In this document: positions 16,619 to 64,000 of the stretch, in pieces
How positions within the stretch are numbered: the stretch's first letter is position 1
How the letters are laid out: every line of letters starts with the position of its first letter
IMG/VR virus record: IMGVR_UViG_3300036828_000667
Span: 1 to 64,000 of that record
Strand: one strand, 5' to 3'
Origin: a virus
DNA: 64,000 nt
Program-made: the position numbers and the translations under genes
The notes under the pieces: model-generated
What the model was told of the DNA's origin: nothing
The model's database searches: none
What the model saw: the letters and a program-made list of their open reading frames with translations, nothing else

Positions 16619-16675
16619 GGTTACTCCAGAACAAGACGCTTGACATTGGGTCTAGGCATGGTACCGTGGCGATGT

Positions 16676-16760
16676 GCACACCGAACCGGAGCATACCTAC
16701 CCACGCCTTCCCGCGCCATTCCAAACCATACCCAACCTACCCTCACCACACCGCACCATA
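16676..16760 (+). ncRNA. pentamer element E1, 17 units
   Basis: (C/G)C-NNN x17; TTGACA 16640; ends CCACA CCGCA CCATA. Confidence 0.85.
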
Positions 16761-16777
16761 CTATTACCTAGTACATA

Positions 16778-17578
16778 CTACCCACTGTGAGGCAGGCTCA
16801 CCCCAACATTTGGAAGAACGGGCGAGACATCCGATGGACGCACCACACCAGCAGTCGCATTTGGCTGGACGTTCACGGGTGCGGTAACTGGCACTAAACC
16901 ACCAGCGTTCGGCCCTGTATAGTTGACTTGCTCGATATCAAGAATCGATACATTACTATAATCTTTTTCCTGTGCGACTCTCATAGCAATAGACTTGGCC
17001 TCTTCTGGAGAAGAAGCTCTAATCGATAGGTGCTCCGTTCGTGGCGTTTCTGTCTCCGGAGTCGAATACTGAATTTTCACGGCGAACGTATAGAGCCCTC
17101 CCGGAGCAGTGAGAGTAGGATCGTGACCTGCGAAGTCTTCACCAAACACAGCCACATGCACTGAACGCCTCATGGCATTTTCACTTATTTTCATGACTTG
17201 GGTTCCTGTCGTTACGATACAAGAATCACTGTAATGCGGTGACAGTTCCCAAGGAACATTAACACCGATATAGTTCAACGCTCTGGTGAGAATATCCCTA
17301 GGATTGTCTACACCGTATTGTTTAGCTAAAGTCCTAACCAAACTCCCTTGTGAGGTGTCATTGACCAAGGCCATGACATCCTCGACTGGCAAGTGATCTC
17401 CTCTTGCAATAGCATCAGTACTCGGATCACTAGGATCAGTATCAGGAGTACCAGGACGCTTAGACATCAGATGAATAGGGAGTGCATCTGAAAATGCGCA
17501 TATAAACTGGAAATCTCTTCGCGAGAAGTCATCTCCTAACATTCTTAATCTATCCCACACACGTAATGTCGTCACCAT
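16778..17578 (-). CDS. hypothetical protein (contains E1 match)
   Basis: 266 aa, GGAGA RBS. Confidence 0.75.
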   Translation of the reverse strand: MVTTLRVWDRLRMLGDDFSRRDFQFICAFSDALPIHLMSKRPGTPDTDPSDPSTDAIARGDHLPVEDVMALVNDTSQGSLVRTLAKQYGVDNPRDILTRALNYIGVNVPWELSPHYSDSCIVTTGTQVMKISENAMRRSVHVAVFGEDFAGHDPTLTAPGGLYTFAVKIQYSTPETETPRTEHLSIRASSPEEAKSIAMRVAQEKDYSNVSILDIEQVNYTGPNAGGLVPVTAPVNVQPNATAGVVRPSDVSPVLPNVGVSLPHSG

Positions 17579-20219: not shown

Positions 20220-20492
20220 TCATCCTGTAGGATGCTTAGAAGCATCTTCAGGTGTCTTTGCCTTATGGTGTTCTTCAGGTGCTTTTGCTTTATGGTCTTC
20301 AGGCTTCTTTGCCTTTACAGGCTCCTCGGGCGGGGGAGGCTCAACATGAACCGGGTAGACCGGCTGATCGTCAACGCCCTCGGGCTGATCGCCGAGCGTG
20401 TGGATCACGGGCCTAATCATCTCGTCCCGAGAATGACGATATTCTGGGAACCCACCATCAGCACCCACGATCTTTTCAACGTATTGAGCCAT
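20220..20492 (-). CDS. P/E/K-rich hypothetical protein (contains E2 match)
   Basis: AGGAGA RBS. Confidence 0.7.
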   Translation of the reverse strand: MAQYVEKIVGADGGFPEYRHSRDEMIRPVIHTLGDQPEGVDDQPVYPVHVEPPPPEEPVKAKKPEDHKAKAPEEHHKAKTPEDASKHPTG

Positions 20493-20546: not shown

Positions 20547-20611
20547 ACGGACCATTCCGATCCGAAGCCAGCCCCACCGTGCCTATCCCCTCCCCAGCGA
20601 ACCGAACCACA
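20547..20611 (+). ncRNA. pentamer element E2, 12-13 units
   Basis: TTGACA 20508; CC-NNN register; ends CCGAA CCACA. Confidence 0.82.
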
Positions 20612-39269: not shown

Positions 39270-39315
39270 GACCTAACATCCCTCTTGACTTTCAGACTGA
39301 CCTATGCTCACATCA

Positions 39316-39380
39316 CCACTTCACCCCGAACCGACCCGAACCATGCCACCCCGATCTGCACCCGTCCGCTCCATACCACA
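39316..39380 (+). ncRNA. pentamer element E4, 13 units
   Basis: TTGACT 39285; ends CCATA CCACA CTTTTT. Confidence 0.82.
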
Positions 39381-39401: not shown

Positions 39402-39920
39402 TCATTCGGCGGACCACTGGATGATAAGCTTGTCGTTAGATAGACCAGCCTTGAAACTGCGATTATTGGCGATTTGTTCGACTATCTGTCTGGCACGAAC
39501 AATGGTCACTTCTTTTTCCATGATTCCTAAAGCTTCACGAATAGACTTACCTACCCGCACCTTAATCATACCACTACTCCTTGTCGTGCCATCCGAATTC
39601 AACCTACGTCTCCACTCAAGATTACTAGGACGGTTATCAAACCTAATATCATTCAGATGTTTAGCCATATACCCAGGTTTTTTAACCTGTCCAGTGAACG
39701 CAGATAATATAAACCAATGAGAAAGGTAACGACGATAGTGTTTTATAACTACCAAATAACCATCAGGGGTAAGAGTTTGTATTCTAAGTTCTGTCTTCTC
39801 TACGACTCTATGGCCAACGATACCACCCGGTAACACTCTAATACGACCATGATCAGAAGCTTGGTGATAAGGCCAATCTGGAATGTCTTTCCAGATCTCA
39901 CCCTTGTGTCCCCGAATCAT
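39402..39920 (-). CDS. NUMOD4-HNH protein fused to an extra C-terminal domain
   Basis: EIWKDI..QASDHGRIR; HLND...DNR.SNLEW. Confidence 0.75.
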   Translation of the reverse strand: MIRGHKGEIWKDIPDWPYHQASDHGRIRVLPGGIVGHRVVEKTELRIQTLTPDGYLVVIKHYRRYLSHWFILSAFTGQVKKPGYMAKHLNDIRFDNRPSNLEWRRRLNSDGTTRSSGMIKVRVGKSIREALGIMEKEVTIVRARQIVEQIANNRSFKAGLSNDKLIIQWSAE

Positions 39921-40137
39921 CTTTCATACTCATGGGGGGGGGTTCCGTATCACACCATTCGGAGTGAGCATGTAATAGATCACTCTCGGCTCGTGTGAAG
40001 AATATCGTCCCACCAAGGTCACGACCTAACAATTTCTCTGCTTCGTCCCGTGGAATGTAACCTATCGGCTTTTTGTCGTCATCGGTCGCAAAGACAGAGT
40101 TCTTCCAACTCTTTTCAATAACTAGCCATTCTCTCAT
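39898..40137 (-). CDS. hypothetical protein
   Basis: GGGG RBS. Confidence 0.55.
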   Translation of the reverse strand: MREWLVIEKSWKNSVFATDDDKKPIGYIPRDEAEKLLGRDLGGTIFFTRAESDLLHAHSEWCDTEPPPMSMKDDSGTQG

Positions 40138-40176
40138 CGGTCACCCCTTGACTTCCAAACCAACCCATGCTTACGT

Positions 40177-40258
40177 GACCGTCTATCCCATCCGAACCAG
40201 TCCAATCCTATCCTATGCACACCGCACAGAATGACCTAAGAGAAATCTTAGGTCATTC
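40177..40258 (+). ncRNA. pentamer element E5 (8-10 units) with GAAA-loop hairpin
   Basis: TTGACT 40148; GCACA CCGCA; 13-bp stem 40229-40258. Confidence 0.85.
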
Positions 40259-40263
40259 GCTTT

Positions 40264-40476
40264 TCAATCAGTGTCATAACCATCTGCGCTATAGTAGTTA
40301 TTTTCGTGGTACGGACACTCTTCTCTCATGAGAGCTAAGCAACGGCGAATAGATGCACTGCTTGTCCCATAGGACTCAACCACGTGGTCGCACCTTGAAC
40401 AAGTAACCTTGACACTGGGAACTTCCCCGTGATCACCTTCCAATTCGATTTCATCTATGGTACATTTTACCTTCAT
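40264..40476 (-). CDS. small Cys-rich protein (contains E5 match)
   Basis: CSRC, RRCL..MREECP. Confidence 0.7.
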   Translation of the reverse strand: MKVKCTIDEIELEGDHGEVPSVKVTCSRCDHVVESYGTSSASIRRCLALMREECPYHENNYYSADGYDTD

Positions 40477-40682
40477 GGCGCATCGTCAGGCCAGTATTTG
40501 AACTGGTTCCTAGATTGCCAATTATATATAGGTTGCCAGATCCCAATCTTCGCTAGTAGCTTCAAATACAATGGAGCGGCAGCATGACAAGCAACTAGCA
40601 TCTGATCGTAATGATCGTTGTGAGCCTTGATCCGGTCAAGAAAGGGAGTCTCTCCCTTCGTATGTTCACCGATTGATCCCAT
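40473..40682 (-). CDS. hypothetical protein (contains E6 match)
   Basis: ATG 40682 after GGAGG. Confidence 0.65.
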   Translation of the reverse strand: MGSIGEHTKGETPFLDRIKAHNDHYDQMLVACHAAAPLYLKLLAKIGIWQPIYNWQSRNQFKYWPDDAP

Positions 40683-40729
40683 ATCCCCCTCCACTTGACT
40701 CACAAAGATTATTTGGCTACTATCCAAAC

Positions 40730-40811
40730 GCGAGCCAAACCGGTCCACTCCACGCCCCTCCTTCGCTTACCGATCCACACAGAATGGCCTGAGAGAAATC
40801 TTGGGCCATTC
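40730..40811 (+). ncRNA. pentamer element E6 (10 units) with GAAA-loop hairpin
   Basis: TTGACT 40695-N17-TACTAT; stem 40782-40811 with two G-U pairs. Confidence 0.85.
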
Positions 40812-40920
40812 GCTATTCCATTGCCTTCACGGTAAAGATTTCGTCAACCTGACCACCACACGTGCAAGGCCAGTATCTCATAATTTAGCATTTGCGTTCA
40901 CCACAAACCTTCGTCATTGT

Positions 40921-41271: not shown

Positions 41272-42384
41272 TCATGGCGTCGAATAGGTCCAGGTGTTGA
41301 TCAGCAACGGCGAAATCCCAGAGATGCCGGTCGCCGCTACAATACCGACCCAAGCCATGGAACCGCCAACGGCCGTTGGAATATCGATACCGGTCCAGGT
41401 ATGCGTGTAACAAGTCTCTCCGGGACAGACACCGTCGGCCGTTACATCATACATGCTGAGCGTCAGCTTGCTACCATCGTAAACGGTCGTCGCCGAGTAG
41501 ACATGCCCAGTCGTGGTGTTTTGCTTATTGCTTGGCGAATTAAGGGCCACTGGACTTGTAGAAAGCTTGTCGACACCGACATAATGATAGTTGGTGCCAC
41601 CCTCACCAGGAATACACGGCGACTGTCCCGGTGCGACATTGCCGGGCGGTTGGGTGTCGGTGCGATAAATCTGCACCGACGAATAAACGAAATCCCAGGA
41701 ACTTGCGACCAGTGGGCTGTAACTATCAAGCTCAAGAGCAAATACACGATCCGGCGGCTCCGGCTGGCTCCAGCCCTGGAAAAATCCAGCCTCGCAACCT
41801 GCACCACCCGAAAAGTGCTTGCCGTTGAAACCCGCAGGATTGTTGGTCGAATTTTGCACGACGAACGCCACATTCTGGCCGTTCGGCACAAAAGTAAACG
41901 TAGATTTGAAGGCTCTCGCGTCTACCTGCGTTTGATAGATCAGACTGGCCCCAATATGCGATAGATTGGCAGGGATCAAATTAACCTGATTGCCCGACAA
42001 TCCCATGCCGTTGGAACCGCTTGCCCAGAATTTCTGCTCGCCACCGGCACTGGGAAATTGCACCCCGCACGAGCCGGACGAAGAGAAGCCAGCCGAGCAG
42101 TCGAATGCAACGACACCCGTGGGTGGCTCGATTGGTTCGATCGGCGGCCGTTCCGGTCGGACACACGGTACTGCTGCAACGTCTACCATGCACAACTGGA
42201 GCTTCTTACCGCCGACTGCAGCATCGGAAGGACACGGCACGGCCGTACCGCCGGTAATGCAAATATTGATGGTCTGGGCATGTGCTGGCCACAACCAAAG
42301 CATTCCGCATATCGCTAACAAGACAACAAAGATGAAAAAGCTCAAAAGACGTTTTTCTTTCTGCAGATTCATGGCAATCCCCAT
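41272..42384 (-). CDS. secreted legume-lectin-like (ConA fold) protein, GC-rich
   Basis: signal peptide; F.STFTF, AFVVQN, FALELDSY, AWVG..AATG. Confidence 0.7.
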   Translation of the reverse strand: MGIAMNLQKEKRLLSFFIFVVLLAICGMLWLWPAHAQTINICITGGTAVPCPSDAAVGGKKLQLCMVDVAAVPCVRPERPPIEPIEPPTGVVAFDCSAGFSSSGSCGVQFPSAGGEQKFWASGSNGMGLSGNQVNLIPANLSHIGASLIYQTQVDARAFKSTFTFVPNGQNVAFVVQNSTNNPAGFNGKHFSGGAGCEAGFFQGWSQPEPPDRVFALELDSYSPLVASSWDFVYSSVQIYRTDTQPPGNVAPGQSPCIPGEGGTNYHYVGVDKLSTSPVALNSPSNKQNTTTGHVYSATTVYDGSKLTLSMYDVTADGVCPGETCYTHTWTGIDIPTAVGGSMAWVGIVAATGISGISPLLINTWTYSTP

Positions 42385-42397
42385 TCGATTCCTTCAA

Positions 42398-42422
42398 CCA
42401 GTGCACAGCGCAGCATACCGCA
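42398..42422 (+). ncRNA. truncated pentamer element E7 (3' part)
   Basis: CCAGT GCACA GCGCA GCATA CCGCA CTTTTTATATCAC; same 3' flank as E4. Confidence 0.65.
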
Positions 42423-42461
42423 CTTTTTATATCACCTAGAGAACACTACTATCATTCAGAA

Positions 42462-42711: not shown

Positions 42712-43386
42712 TTATTCAAACCTAGCAAAGGAACCAGCTATACGATCAGCAGCTTCAGCATATGCCTTAGCCGCATCCTCAGGCTTATCGAAACAACCCA
42801 AGTGAATTGTTTTACCTGCGTGTCCAATACAAGCTCTCCATTTATCCTTATGACGCCAGACACCCTTAAAACCACTTGTGTTATTCTTCTGCTTTGAACG
42901 ATTATACTTATTCTGTATATCGGTTGCTGAACGGAGATTGTCCCATATATTATTAGCCCTATTTAAATCCTTATGATCAATCTCATCTTCTGGCCAGCTT
43001 CCTGTCATCCAAAGCCATATAATACGATGCACACGATAACTCTGTCCACAAATCTCAACTTGTATATACCCATCGCTGCAAAGACCACCTGCCTTGTCTC
43101 CAGCCATAGCATTACTTGATCGTCCAACTTTCCATGTAAGACAACCAGTCATTGGATCATAGTCAAATAATTGTCTGACTAACTCAAATGTCATACTTTC
43201 TTCAGGCATCTCCACGTCGTTAATAATACAGGAAAGCTCAGTCATGGTTCCAAACTTCCTAGTTTTACTATATAGTCTTATAACCCATGTTTTTAGATAG
43301 GTAAGCGTAGCTGACCTGTCATCAAAGCTGACCTGGACCCCGGCAGACCCCATCTGGCACCCTCCCGGAGCCCTCAGACTGGACAA
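42712..43386 (-). CDS. HNH-AP2 endonuclease (true start probably near 43200-43250)
   Basis: paralogue of 38568-39077. Confidence 0.82.
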   Translation of the reverse strand: MSSLRAPGGCQMGSAGVQVSFDDRSATLTYLKTWVIRLYSKTRKFGTMTELSCIINDVEMPEESMTFELVRQLFDYDPMTGCLTWKVGRSSNAMAGDKAGGLCSDGYIQVEICGQSYRVHRIIWLWMTGSWPEDEIDHKDLNRANNIWDNLRSATDIQNKYNRSKQKNNTSGFKGVWRHKDKWRACIGHAGKTIHLGCFDKPEDAAKAYAEAADRIAGSFARFE

Positions 43387-47188: not shown

Positions 47189-47268
47189 TATGGTGCGGTG
47201 TGCAGCGGTTAGGCATGGGATGGGCGGGCTGGCGACGGCGAGGCACGGGTTGCATTGGTGTGGGTTGG
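47189..47268 (-). ncRNA. pentamer element E10, 16 units
   Basis: follows hairpin 47281-47317; ends GCACA CCGCA CCATA CTTTT. Confidence 0.85.
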
Positions 47269-47325
47269 TAGGATAGAGGACAAAGGACCAGAAGATTAGA
47301 TATCCTCTGATCCTTTGAACAGATG

Positions 47326-47390
47326 TGCGGTTTGGTATGCTGTGGGCCGGCACGGCTGGGGGTGGCGCGGGAAGGCTTGGCATGGCTTGC
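47326..47390 (-). ncRNA. pentamer element E11, 13 units
   Basis: TTGACT(-) 47421-47426 N17 TAGTCT. Confidence 0.88.
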
Positions 47391-47433
47391 ACCAAAAAGA
47401 CTACTACCAAACTTACCGCTAGTCAACCACTAT

Positions 47434-47847
47434 TTACCTGATACGCTGCACTAAGCAACCTTCCGATTTTGCCTGCCACGTCCCACACCACTGGCCAGCT
47501 TCAACAGGTCGCAAGATCCACTTTCGTGAATATTCCCAGATCGGAACGACCTTTTTTTCCATGACCTTCTGGCCGTTCTCGTCTAAGACGAGTTTGTTCT
47601 TTTCACCCCGCTTAGACCGTGAGATTTCCTGTGTCCCGACTTGCGTGGCAAATTTCATTTTGACCGCGGACACAGCTGAACCCAAAGTTTTCATGGGATC
47701 GGGCATCTTCTCGGTCTTAGCTGCGAAGAAGCTCTGTCCGACGCCCAATTTATCAAGAGGATATTTGGCGACCCCATTACGGTTACCACGTTTCGACTTC
47801 GGCATTTCCACCGCGTCGATGATTTCAAACGTCACTTGCTCTTCCAT
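47434..47847 (-). CDS. putative DNA-binding phage protein (contains E10 and E11 matches)
   Basis: KYPLDKLGVGQSFF motif. Confidence 0.75.
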   Translation of the reverse strand: MEEQVTFEIIDAVEMPKSKRGNRNGVAKYPLDKLGVGQSFFAAKTEKMPDPMKTLGSAVSAVKMKFATQVGTQEISRSKRGEKNKLVLDENGQKVMEKKVVPIWEYSRKWILRPVEAGQWCGTWQAKSEGCLVQRIR

Positions 47848-49433: not shown

Positions 49434-49805
49434 TTGGACTTGCGCCTAGGATGGAGAATACCCAGGAGGATTGGCAAGATCCTTGGTTACCTGGAAGGGT
49501 TCAAATCCCTACATCCCTTGCCCTTAAGAAAGTTCAACCTTCCACCAAAAATAGGGGAAAGACCTTTGAAGAAAGAAAAGAAGGAGAAGGAGAACAAGGC
49601 ATATACTATAGCCGACGAACTATCCAATTGGCTAACTAAAAACAAAGTAGATATAGGTGATGCTATCGATGCCATGGCTAGGTTAATAGGATTGGCTGTA
49701 GGTGTCAGCGTAGACTATGAGGAAATAGAAACCATACTACAGAATATCTACAAGGAAAGTCTCAAAGCGGCGTACTTTTCGTATAAAAAGAATCAAGCTA
49801 ACTAG
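49434..49805 (+). CDS. hypothetical protein (start probably internal; contains E12 match)
   Basis: helical C-terminal half looks coding. Confidence 0.6.
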   Translation: MDLRLGWRIPRRIGKILGYLEGFKSLHPLPLRKFNLPPKIGERPLKKEKKEKENKAYTIADELSNWLTKNKVDIGDAIDAMARLIGLAVGVSVDYEEIETILQNIYKESLKAAYFSYKKNQAN

Positions 49806-49913: not shown

Positions 49914-49978
49914 TGCGGTTTGGCCTGCAGCGGAGCGGATAGGCTAGGTTCGGATAGGCAAGGAAAGGCGTGGTATGA
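49914..49978 (-). ncRNA. pentamer element E12, 12-13 units
   Basis: TTGACA(-) 50011-50016; ends CCAAA CCGCA. Confidence 0.85.
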
Positions 49979-57183: not shown

Positions 57184-57201
57184 TAATGTTAACCTTCTTC
57201 G

Positions 57202-57299
57202 GCGAACCGGTCCAATCCGAACCGACCCTATCCCTACCGGACCCTTGCACAGCATACCGCACATCTACCCCTCAGGCTGTATTACACAGCCTGAGGGGT
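57202..57299 (+). ncRNA. pentamer element E15 (12 units) with 3' hairpin
   Basis: TTGACA 57167 N17 TAACCT; stem 57267-57299. Confidence 0.87.
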
Positions 57300-61648: not shown

Positions 61649-62176
61649 ATGGCAAAACACAATGAAGAAAATGATCTATGGTTCCTTAGCAAAATCGCAG
61701 ATGGAACCATTTCTGTATCCGAAGACGGAGAGGTCTTCAACAACAAGACAGGTAGATATATAGGCGCTCAACAAGGAGCAGGTTACCTTAAGATTTCTAT
61801 GGCAAAGAGAGTTGATGGAAAACTTGTTATTGTCCATATGCAAATCCATAGGTTAGTATGGCTACATTTCAAAGGACCTATTCCTCAGGGACTAGAAGTC
61901 AATCACAAAGATTTAAACAAATCGAACCCACGATTGTCAAATCTAGATTTACAAACACCCAAAGGGAATGCTGAACATGCCACCTTAAATGGTGTTGACC
62001 GACGCTCAAAAACAGGAGGCCATAAAAACGCTAATGCCAAATTTACACGTGAACAAGTCGAGATGCTACGGAGACAATTCAAATCGAAAGAAACCACAGT
62101 TAAAGAAATAATGATAAACTATAGTGTTTCTAAGCCAGTTGTGTATTGGATGCTGGAAGGAAGGACCTATAAATAG
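61649..62176 (+). CDS. HNH endonuclease
   Basis: IHRLVW..F.GPIP..EVNHKD.NK.N..L.NL. Confidence 0.88.
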   Translation: MAKHNEENDLWFLSKIADGTISVSEDGEVFNNKTGRYIGAQQGAGYLKISMAKRVDGKLVIVHMQIHRLVWLHFKGPIPQGLEVNHKDLNKSNPRLSNLDLQTPKGNAEHATLNGVDRRSKTGGHKNANAKFTREQVEMLRRQFKSKETTVKEIMINYSVSKPVVYWMLEGRTYK

Positions 62177-63410: not shown

Positions 63411-63514
63411 TCGAACCGCTGCCTTGCTTGCCAAACCGGGCCAAGCCGGCGCGGACCAAACCTCCGCACACCGCACAATGGGAGTAGTCAAATGGCTTGC
63501 AGACTACTCCCATT
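63411..63514 (+). ncRNA. pentamer element E17 (13 units) with 3' hairpin
   Basis: TTGACC 63369; GCACA CCGCA; stem 63477-63514. Confidence 0.88.
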
Positions 63515-63533: not shown

Positions 63534-64000
63534 ATGCTAATTTCAGTCACGATCTCCGGAATCCGACCTTTAATCCTCGACGCGTTTTCCGAGGAAGCGT
63601 TGCTTAAGGGGAAGGGAGGAAAGAGTACAGCCCAGCCCAAGGAACTGAGTCCCTTGGATCAAGCCAAGCGTAGGTTATACTATAATGGAGATGGTACCGA
63701 CGTTCCTATATTCCCAGCAGACAACCTACTCAGCTGTATCATCGCTGCCGGGCGGTTTATCAAGGTCGGGAAAAGGCAACTAACTACTCGCGACAGTACG
63801 ACAGTAACTTCATTCCTACAGATATCAGAACTATATCTTCCCATTAGGTCGATAGATGGATGGCGAGTCGACTCCAGGAGCATCGTCAACCCGTCTACAA
63901 AAGGTCGTCACATATGCTACCGTCCCATCTTTGACGACTGGGAGTTAGATTTCACGCTCGACATCGATACGAATGAAGCGAGCGACAGCTTGGTTAGACA
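63534..64000 (+). CDS. RAMP/Cas7-like protein, truncated by the window end (not in ORF track)
   Basis: AGGAG RBS; MLISVTISGIRPLIL..., PIFPADNLLSCI, D.R.IV...GRH..YRPIFDDWELDFTL.ID; no stop to 64000. Confidence 0.7.
   Translation, partial: MLISVTISGIRPLILDAFSEEALLKGKGGKSTAQPKELSPLDQAKRRLYYNGDGTDVPIFPADNLLSCIIAAGRFIKVGKRQLTTRDSTTVTSFLQISELYLPIRSIDGWRVDSRSIVNPSTKGRHICYRPIFDDWELDFTLDIDTNEASDSLVR

What the first reader, a model, noticed from the sequence alone, without database searches (positions are those of the whole stretch)
40635..40811. E6 decodes to KGTTPFLD versus adjacent KGETPFLD and shares its hairpin with E5
7/8 aa with 40635-40658, including a synonymous TTA/CTT Leu swap. E5 and E6 end in near-identical GAATG.CCT.AGA-GAAA-TCTT.GG.CATTC-GCT hairpins but carry unrelated triplets, implying a scaffold that is duplicated and then reprogrammed.
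Basis: partly seen in the sequence, partly recalled or inferred. Interest (0 to 1): 0.72.

Follow-up and report, generated by a model that had tools for sequence, protein, structure and literature searches.

The report
Phage VIPR guide RNAs, C-rich variant
The two look-alike hairpins end two small guide-RNA genes of a VIPR system, a CRISPR-like phage weapon first described in 2026; this copy uses CC instead of GG as its fixed letters, and each guide spells a variant of the gene next door.

Summary
Dropping the last two bases (CC or GC) of each 5-base unit in 40737-40776 (+) spells KGTTPFLD. The gene 69 bp away has KGETPFLD at 40635-40658 (-), with the TTA/CTT Leu swap. No unit-order shuffle out of 300 reaches 7 of 8 residues within 500 bp. 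The two 30-nt GAAA hairpins exist only at E5 and E6 in the 113.8-kb genome.

E5 and E6 are stand-alone guide-RNA (vrRNA) genes of a VIPR system (bioRxiv 10.64898/2026.04.26.720920 and two companion preprints). The genome has about 30 such 5-nt-periodic elements. It also has a Vipr (Cas7-like) gene at 63534-64175, with one guide before it and an array of about ten after it. The published rule, two bases read and one skipped, holds here.

Three things differ from print:
- The RNA strand is C-rich (NNN-CC, not GGY-NN), and the Vipr residues that contact guanine are changed.
- The third variable base tracks the target codon.
- About ten dispersed guides each lie within 400 bp of a resident gene that they match incompletely (at most 77%). 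This fits guides aimed at rival phages' alleles, each linked to its own resistant copy.

This scan has already found VIPR systems, C-rich arrays and guides beside their targets on other DNA. No true target was found.

The parts
40695..40723 (+). E6 promoter: TTGACT, 17-nt spacer, TACTAT
   Evidence: Called by the consensus scan. The same -35/17-nt geometry is found at 14 of 30 elements on the C-rich strand, against about 1.9 expected.
40727..40776 (+). E6 guide tract: ten NNN-CC/GC pentamers; units 40737-40776 spell KGTTPFLD
40777..40820 (+). E6 3' tail: ACACA, then a 13-bp hairpin with GAAA loop (40782-40811), then GCTATTCC
   Evidence: On the + strand the fold is a full 13-bp stem (z -3.0). 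On the - strand the stem is broken (z -0.15).
40635..40664 (-). Resident near-target of E6: codons 7-16 of the 69-aa gene 40476-40682 (-)
   Evidence: 6 of 8 dinucleotides and 7 of 8 residues match.
40148..40176 (+). E5 promoter-like site: TTGACT, 17-nt spacer, TTACGT
40179..40218 (+). E5 guide tract: eight pentamers that spell PYHESNYY
40219..40268 (+). E5 3' tail: ACACC GCACA, then a 13-bp GAAA hairpin (40229-40258), then GCTTTTCAAT
   Evidence: Called as a + strand terminator. Fold z -6.5.
40282..40314 (-). Resident near-target of E5: the C-terminal PYHENNYYSAD of the 70-aa gene 40264-40476 (-)
   Evidence: 7 of 8 dinucleotides match, reached by 0 of 300 shuffles.
39313..39377 (+). E4, a further solo guide (TTGACT promoter; tail CCACAC-TTTTTATATC)
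16673..16757 (+). Solo guide; its near-target lies 303 bp away at 17060-17098 (-), 11 of 13 units
20549..20608 (+). Solo guide; its near-target lies at 20352-20378 (-)
47192..47393 (-). Tandem pair of guides (E11 47329-47393, E10 47192-47271) that match gene 47434-47847 (-). E11 matches 10 of 10 dinucleotides at 47632-47661.
49917..49976 (-). Solo guide; 7 of 8 match at 49766-49789
57199..57258 (+). Solo guide with TTGACA promoter and a strong terminator hairpin
63413..63472 (+). Guide just upstream of vipr; it spells vipr residues 21-30 (EALLKGKGGK), with both Leu codons swapped between codon families
63534..64000 (+). vipr gene (runs to 64175, beyond the window); 213-aa Cas7-like RAMP protein P0001

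Best explanation
E5 (40148-40268) and E6 (40695-40820) are two stand-alone vrRNA genes of the phage's VIPR system.

Each is transcribed from the + strand by its own sigma-70-type promoter. Each gives an RNA of about 90 nt: an unstructured run of 5-nt units (three variable bases plus CC), then the handle CCRCACA, then a terminal GAAA-loop hairpin that ends the transcript.

By homology with the solved SUSP1 complex, Vipr protomers (gene 63534-64175) should line up one per unit. They would hold the fixed bases and present the variable ones to double-stranded DNA, where two bases are read and every third is passed over. Binding silences transcription.

Because targets are coding DNA in codon register, the variable letters read like a peptide. 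E6 and E5 spell variants of the hypervariable patches of the genes beside them and match the resident copies only partly. I infer that they are aimed at the alleles carried by rival related phages, and that the resident allele acts as the linked antidote.

Shown here:
- the anatomy of the elements;
- the Vipr homology;
- the one-base-skip register;
- the closeness of guides to their near-targets;
- the incomplete match to the phage's own genes;
- the indicators of which strand is the RNA.

Inferred:
- expression of the guides;
- assembly of a protein-RNA complex;
- silencing;
- rival alleles as the targets.
For: Periodic elements:
- 30 pentamer-periodic elements in the genome, against 0-1 in shuffled genomes.
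- Unit position 5 is C in 97% of units. Position 4 is C in 79% and G in 19%.

The Vipr protein:
- Profile match to PDB 36pp 'SUSP1 Vipr protein', E 1.6e-14.
- hhalign to SUSP1 Vipr, probability 98.4%.
- The AF2 model (pLDDT 82) hits Csm3/Cas7 chains.
- It belongs to phrog_4652.

The skip rule:
- With one skipped base, 8 guides reach at least 7 of 8 matches, against 0-1 guides with 0, 2 or 3 skipped bases.
- 12 best hits lie within 500 bp of their guide, against 0-3 for the other rules.
- Adjacent matches are listed.

Locus layout:
- Promoter, repeats and tail follow the same order as in SUSP1, with one guide upstream of vipr and an array downstream.

Which strand is the RNA:
- Promoter geometry is present at 14 of 30 elements on the C-rich strand, against 4 of 30 on the other strand.
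- A terminator and a promoter are called on the + strand.
- The folds favour the + strand.

Alleles and self-match:
- Homologues vary exactly at the guide sites.
- No guide matches its own genome above 0.77.

Mechanism: taken from bioRxiv 10.64898/2026.04.26.720920, 10.64898/2026.04.26.720927 and 10.64898/2026.10.15.759431.
Against: - No RNA data exist for this phage.
- No target with at least 80% match was found for any guide. Exact scans of IMG/VR for the E6 and E11 patterns were empty. The two genome hits for E6 are at chance level and lie in unrelated genes.
- Read on the other strand, the units are GG-N-NN. That is the published arrangement, so the strand is not settled.
- On the two read bases alone, E6's match to its neighbour (6 of 8) is only modestly beyond chance (6 of 300 shuffles).
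- E5 has only 7-8 variable units, fewer than the published 9-16.
Confidence: 0.85

Rival explanations
1. The guide RNA is the G-rich strand, the canonical GG-Y-NN form. It would be read antisense to vipr, with the conserved handle at its 5' end. The TTGACA boxes and hairpins on the C-rich strand would be incidental, or would serve the neighbouring genes.
For: On that strand the unit order (two fixed bases, one semi-fixed, two variable) is exactly the published one, and the semi-fixed base is a pyrimidine in 59% of units. TGnTAAAGT-like extended -10 motifs precede many units on that strand (seen in the sequences). 12 of 19 solo elements would then run the same way as the surrounding genes.
Against: The -35 box, 17-nt spacer and distance to the repeats are present at 14 of 30 elements on the C-rich strand, against 4 of 30 on the other. 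T-runs follow the hairpins only on the C-rich strand. The G.U pairs become C.A mismatches on the G-rich strand. All [VS]M-loop relatives have C-rich arrays on the vipr strand, while all D[FYW]-loop relatives and SUSP1 have G-rich ones. The guanine-contacting residues H17, D177 and W178 of SUSP1 Vipr are D, V and M in this clade. 41% of units would put a purine into a pocket said to exclude purines.
Confidence: 0.12
2. The guides regulate the phage's own neighbouring genes. They would act as timed self-silencing or autoregulation, for example of vipr by the guides that flank it, and not against rival alleles.
For: About ten guides lie within 400 bp of the gene they resemble. E11 matches 10 consecutive dinucleotides of its neighbour. 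Two guides flank and match vipr itself.
Against: Every full-length self-match is 0.77 or lower, under the 0.8 cut-off used in print. The mismatches include Leu and Arg codon-family swaps, the only silent changes that alter a base the guide reads. Homologues vary exactly at the guide sites. Print reports self-match scores lower than matches to rivals' sequences.
Confidence: 0.2
3. These are ordinary intergenic promoter/terminator cassettes, like the PeSL cassettes of T4-type phages. The peptide resemblance would be chance.
For: The elements sit between small early genes and do contain promoter-like and terminator-like sites.
Against: Strict 5-nt phasing at 30 sites, against 0-1 in shuffled genomes. 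A Vipr homologue sits beside an array. The best genome-wide matches cluster within 400 bp of the elements, and only under the one-skip rule. 0 of 300 shuffles reach the E5 and E6 amino-acid matches.
Confidence: 0.02

Closest known systems
Type II VIPR of Escherichia phage SUSP1 (Vipr + vap1 + vrRNAs; bioRxiv 10.64898/2026.04.26.720920 and 10.64898/2026.04.26.720927; PDB 36pp)
   Same: A homologous lone Cas7-like protein. Guide RNAs of about 100 nt made of tandem 5-nt units with a constant 3' tail. A TTGACA-type promoter. One guide upstream of vipr and an array downstream. Targets read two bases on and one off, in codon register.
   Different: The fixed letters are CC (C/G then C) on the transcribed strand instead of GGY. 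The third variable base is unconstrained in composition and tracks the target codon. The tail is CCRCAC plus a plain hairpin or ATACTTTATC, not a pseudoknot. Vipr has D, V and M where SUSP1 has H17, D177 and W178. There are about 30 guides, most of them scattered over the genome. No clear vap gene is present.
Solo (orphan) vrRNAs of VIPR-null SUSP1-family phages and F5 satellites (bioRxiv 10.64898/2026.10.15.759431)
   Same: Stand-alone guide genes away from the array. Guides that match the start and the end of vipr. Self-match is lower than the match to rivals' sequences.
   Different: This phage keeps its own vipr. Its solo guides sit beside at least eight different ordinary genes, not only at the VIPR locus.
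Non-canonical VIPR repeat units (GAC/NN, CAC/NN, WGT/NN, TGH/NN; bioRxiv 10.64898/2026.10.21.760802)
   Same: 5-nt-periodic arrays next to Vipr-like folds, with fixed letters other than GGY.
   Different: A CC-type unit is not named in the text I could read, and the figures are not held. No statement about the strand or about a third informative base.
Class 1 CRISPR Cas7 backbone (Csm3, Cas7)
   Same: RAMP fold. One protomer per fixed stretch of guide. Periodic interruption of the guide-target duplex.
   Different: No CRISPR repeats, spacers or cas genes. A 5-nt period instead of 6 nt. A gapped code.

Membership tests
VIPR system | A Vipr protein: a lone, minimal RAMP/Cas7-like protein homologous to published Vipr | tested here: met
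   Profile match to PDB 36pp 'SUSP1 Vipr', E 1.6e-14. hhalign probability 98.4% over 164 columns. The model hits Csm3/Cas7 chains.
VIPR system | vrRNA made of about 9-16 tandem pentanucleotide units with fixed and variable positions | tested here: met
   30 elements of 7-20 units, against 0-1 in shuffled genomes. E6 has 10-11 units. E5 has 8 plus 2 tail units.
VIPR system | The fixed trinucleotide is GGY | tested here: not met
   On the promoter-bearing strand the unit is NNN-CC. Position 4 is C in 79% and G in 19% of units; position 5 is C in 97%. On the other strand it reads GG-N, with only 59% pyrimidine. Print allows 'a related consensus' and non-canonical units.
VIPR system | An invariable 3' tail after the repeats | tested here: met
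   CCRCAC followed by a hairpin or by ATACTTTATC, at all elements. It is not the SUSP1 pseudoknot.
VIPR system | One-nucleotide skip rule, with the skipped base at the codon wobble position | tested here: met
   Skip 1 beats skips 0, 2 and 3: 8 guides reach at least 7 of 8 matches against 0-1, and 12 best hits are nearby against 0-3. The matches are in frame.
VIPR system | Guides flank the vipr gene | tested here: met
   Guide 63413-63472 lies upstream. An array at 64185-65411 begins 10 nt after the stop codon.
VIPR system | vrRNAs are expressed, bound by Vipr, and silence matched DNA | not testable with these tools
   No RNA or protein data exist for this uncultured virus.
VIPR system | An accessory vap gene beside vipr (typical, but not universal) | tested here: inconclusive
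   An HTH_3 protein at genome 62202-62528, E 1e-12, lies 1 kb upstream, with an HNH gene beyond it. Nothing is adjacent, and homology to vap was not tested.
Intrinsic terminator (the E5/E6 hairpin) | A G+C-containing stem followed by a T-run on the transcribed strand | tested here: met
   E5 is called on the + strand (13 pairs, then GCTTTTCAAT). The E6 tail GCTATTCC is weaker and was not called.
CRISPR array | Identical direct repeats of 25-40 nt alternating with spacers, plus cas genes | tested here: not met
   No Rfam match. The elements have a 5-nt period. The only RAMP gene is vipr.

The most novel reading that the evidence does not exclude
In this Vipr clade (G-loop G-x-G-V-M-R-P) the code has shifted. 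The protein would hold CC instead of GG, and the third variable base would be read, or at least copied from the target. The guides would then be true triplet guides (3 read + 2 held) with no skipped base.

Resident genes would be protected by their different wobble bases. Each solo guide would sit beside its own resistant allele as a linked poison-antidote pair, used against sister phages.
Probability: 0.3. Interest if true: 0.8.

Novelty: new variant of a known kind. Interest (0 to 1): 0.55.

Why it matters
VIPR is months old in print and has been characterised only for GGY/NN guides.

A branch with different fixed letters, together with matching changes in the base-contacting residues, would show how the protein-RNA code can drift. 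If the third base is read, it would give a second programmable code, which would matter for designing compact DNA-binding tools.

About ten guides sit next to partly matching resident genes. This offers a natural data set for how phages tell self from rival, and for guide-plus-resistant-allele linkage in warfare between related phages.

For the genome scan, the finding is correct and already explained in kind.

Tried and rejected
- Ordinary translation in all frames, and reversed and complemented readings, give no KGTTPFLD.
- Rfam and tRNA scans of the window found nothing.
- There is no DNA or protein match in the phage collection for the region or for a large structural gene.
- My first reading was minus-strand promoter/leader cassettes of the PeSL type. 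I dropped it once the 5-nt phasing and the Vipr gene were seen.
- Search for real targets:
  - Our guides against 56 related loci reach 0.73 at best.
  - Exact IMG/VR scans for the E6 and E11 patterns and for the hairpin found nothing.
  - Two genome-contig hits for the E6 pattern lie in unrelated genes, which is the number expected by chance.
- Relatives of the E11 and E6 neighbour genes were not recovered as DNA from viral or metagenome contigs.
- Guides in five related loci show no strong within-locus matches, so the closeness of guides to near-targets could not be replicated there.
The 1.5-kb contig that carries close alleles of both neighbour genes could therefore not be read.

Full report
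**Setting.** The window is the first 64 kb of a 113,838-bp IMG/VR virus record, estimated 77% complete. It has a T4-type portal gene and several HNH homing-endonuclease genes. It has no DNA or protein match in the phage collection. Genes run leftwards up to about 44 kb and rightwards after that.

**The observation.**
- KGETPFLD is encoded at 40635-40658 on the minus strand. It lies in a 69-aa gene whose ATG is at 40682.
- KGTTPFLD appears in no ordinary reading.
- On that rule, units 40727-40781 (+) spell NEKGTTPFLDT.
- Within 500 bp, 7 of 8 residues is reached by 0 of 300 unit-order shuffles. 6 of 8 first-two-base matches is reached by 6 of 300. For E5, which spells PYHESNYY against the resident PYHENNYY at 40285-40314, the count is 0 of 300.
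- The two 30-nt hairpins occur only at 40229-40258 and 40782-40811 in the genome, and nowhere in IMG/VR.

**The wider pattern.**
- A scan of the whole genome finds 30 non-overlapping pentamer-phased elements, against 0-1 in shuffled genomes.
- About ten of them form an array at 64185-65411, directly after a 213-aa gene at 63534-64175. One more lies just before that gene.
- For nine elements the best genome-wide match of the variable dinucleotides, read with every third target base passed over, lies within 400 bp of the element itself. Among them are a 10 of 10 match (47329 against 47632-47661) and a 15 of 19 match (64185 against 64026-64082).
- The rule is specific. With one skipped base, 8 guides reach at least 7 of 8 matches and 12 have their best hit nearby. 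With 0, 2 or 3 skipped bases the figures are 0-1 and 0-3.

**Identity.**
- The 213-aa protein (P0001) has no Pfam or NCBIfam match and belongs to phrog_4652.
- It has about 95 metagenomic homologues.
- A profile of these matches PDB 36pp, 'SUSP1 Vipr protein', at E 1.6e-14.
- hhalign to the SUSP1 protein gives 98.4% probability.
- An AlphaFold model (pLDDT 82) hits Csm3/Cas7 chains of type III and type VII CRISPR complexes.
- Three 2026 preprints describe VIPR. A lone RAMP protein polymerises on a vrRNA made of GGY/NN pentamers. It sequesters GGY and pairs each NN with double-stranded DNA while skipping every third base, usually the codon wobble. The result is transcriptional silencing of rival mobile elements.
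- In SUSP1 itself I read the same layout: a TTGACA promoter, G-rich repeats on the vipr strand, then a tail.
- E5 and E6 are therefore solo vrRNA genes. The shared hairpin is the terminal part of their 3' tail.

**Which strand is the RNA?** Four lines of evidence favour the C-rich strand.
1. TTGACW, a 17-nt spacer and a -10-like hexamer, ending 3-12 nt before the first unit, are present at 14 of 30 elements. About 1.9 are expected, and 4 of 30 are found in the other orientation. The elements that lack them are mostly inner units of arrays. The consensus scan calls the E6 promoter and the E5 terminator on the + strand.
2. On the + strand E6 folds into an unstructured guide plus a full 13-bp GAAA hairpin (z -3.0). 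On the minus strand the stem is broken by two C.A mismatches (z -0.15). A third G.U of this kind is in the hairpin after 47329.
3. In 55 related loci, every Vipr with a G-x-G-[VS]-M-R-P loop that has a callable array (4 strictly, 6 loosely) has C-rich arrays on the vipr strand. All 33 with D-[FYW]-R-P loops and arrays, and SUSP1, have G-rich ones.
4. The SUSP1 residues reported to read the two guanines (H17, D177, W178) align to D16, V169 and M170 here, while R138 and R179 are kept (with residue roles).

In the published register the held trinucleotide would be N-C-C instead of G-G-Y, so the pyrimidine-only third pocket is still filled by a pyrimidine. Against this, the other strand reads GG-N-NN, which is the printed order. 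I put the C-rich strand at about 0.8. A later preprint reports non-canonical fixed trinucleotides, but names no CC type in the text I could read.

**The third base.** I examined the 75 units whose first two bases equal the resident gene.
- In two-fold codon boxes, the third base agrees in purine/pyrimidine class with the wobble base in 37 of 41 cases (permutation mean 20.5, P<0.0002).
- In four-fold boxes it is random: 7 the same, 9 transitions and 16 transversions out of 32.
- So the guides spell the same amino acids as a homologue whose silent sites are saturated relative to the resident gene.
- A base that is free to drift and is not read would not keep this signal over that distance.
- Either the third base is read in this clade, or the guides are recent copies of foreign alleles.
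- In print this position is a fixed pyrimidine buried in the protein.

**What the guides are for.**
- No guide matches its own genome above 0.77 over its full length. The cut-off used in print is 0.8, and print also reports no self-targets.
- The mismatches to resident genes include Leu (CTT/TTG, TTA/CTT) and Arg (CGA/AGG, AGA/CGG) codon-family swaps. These are the only silent changes that alter a base the guide reads.
- The one homologue of E6's neighbour (P0101, 80% identical) reads E-K-G-A-T-P-F-L-D. The guide spells E-K-G-T-T-P-F-L-D and the resident gene has T-K-G-E-T-P-F-L-D.
- E5's neighbour belongs to a family of about 90 small proteins that are hypervariable exactly at the guide site, just after the conserved motif MREECP. 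A 94%-identical relative has the Ser that the guide spells.
- Two guides match the start and the G-loop end of vipr. These are the same two regions reported for vipr-targeting solo guides in print.
- I infer that the guides are aimed at alleles of sister phages. Keeping each guide beside the resistant resident allele would prevent recombination from producing a self-targeting genome.
- Earlier agents of this scan reached the same reading on other DNA, so it is not independent evidence. No real target was found.

**E5 versus E6.** They share the -35 box, the CC phasing, and the last 45 nt: CACA, the hairpin and GCT-TTC. The hairpins differ by one compensatory pair and two G.U pairs. Everything else differs. 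Other solo guides end in unrelated hairpins. This fits a recent duplication of a guide gene, or of its 3' end, followed by rewriting of the variable letters.

**Verdict.** The finding is real and well read by the first stage. In kind it is already in print (preprints of April-October 2026), and this scan has met it before, including C-rich arrays. The CC-type unit with matching protein changes, the informative third base, and about ten guide-beside-near-target pairs in one genome make it a variant worth a specialist's attention.

Noticed in passing
L003:4952-5146 (genome 64952-65146, beyond the window): A 65-aa fragment paralogous to the C-terminal third of Vipr, with G-loop G-L-G-S-M-R-P, sits in the middle of the guide array. 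The first array guide also partly matches it. It could be a remnant of a second vipr or a decoy.
   Followed up: partly
window 39925-39945: A run of nine G (nine C on the coding strand) lies at the junction of two overlapping minus-strand ORFs: 39898-40137, and the NUMOD4-HNH ORF 39402-39920. This could be a frameshift, a slippery site or an assembly error.
   Followed up: no
window 41272-42384 (-): A GC-richer 370-aa gene with a signal-peptide-like start and a weak legume-lectin match (E 0.0014) lies between guide elements. A short promoterless guide remnant sits at about 42400-42440.
   Followed up: no
window 42712-43386 (-), 39402-39920 (-), 61649-62176 (+); genome 66253-66807 (-): Four HNH homing-endonuclease-type genes (HNH_3 with AP2 or NUMOD4 in two of them; the gene at 66253-66807 was judged by eye only) are interspersed with the solo guides. 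Two kinds of selfish or competitive elements share the same intergenic niches.
   Followed up: partly
L003:2202-2528 (genome 62202-62528): An HTH_3 (Cro/CI-type) protein lies 1 kb upstream of vipr, followed by a small DnaJ-type zinc-finger protein. These are possible accessory (vap-like) genes.
   Followed up: partly
L004:8723-9986: The closest relative's array (Vipr 62% identical) separates its C-rich guides with a constant CCGCACCACAGGCGACAGCC. It shares only the core CCRCACCA with this phage's tail.
   Followed up: partly
window 68188-68287 equivalent (genome coordinates, beyond the window) and 49917-49976 (-): Two guides match nearby DNA out of frame or on the antisense strand of the local gene. 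This fits recognition of double-stranded DNA on either strand.
   Followed up: no
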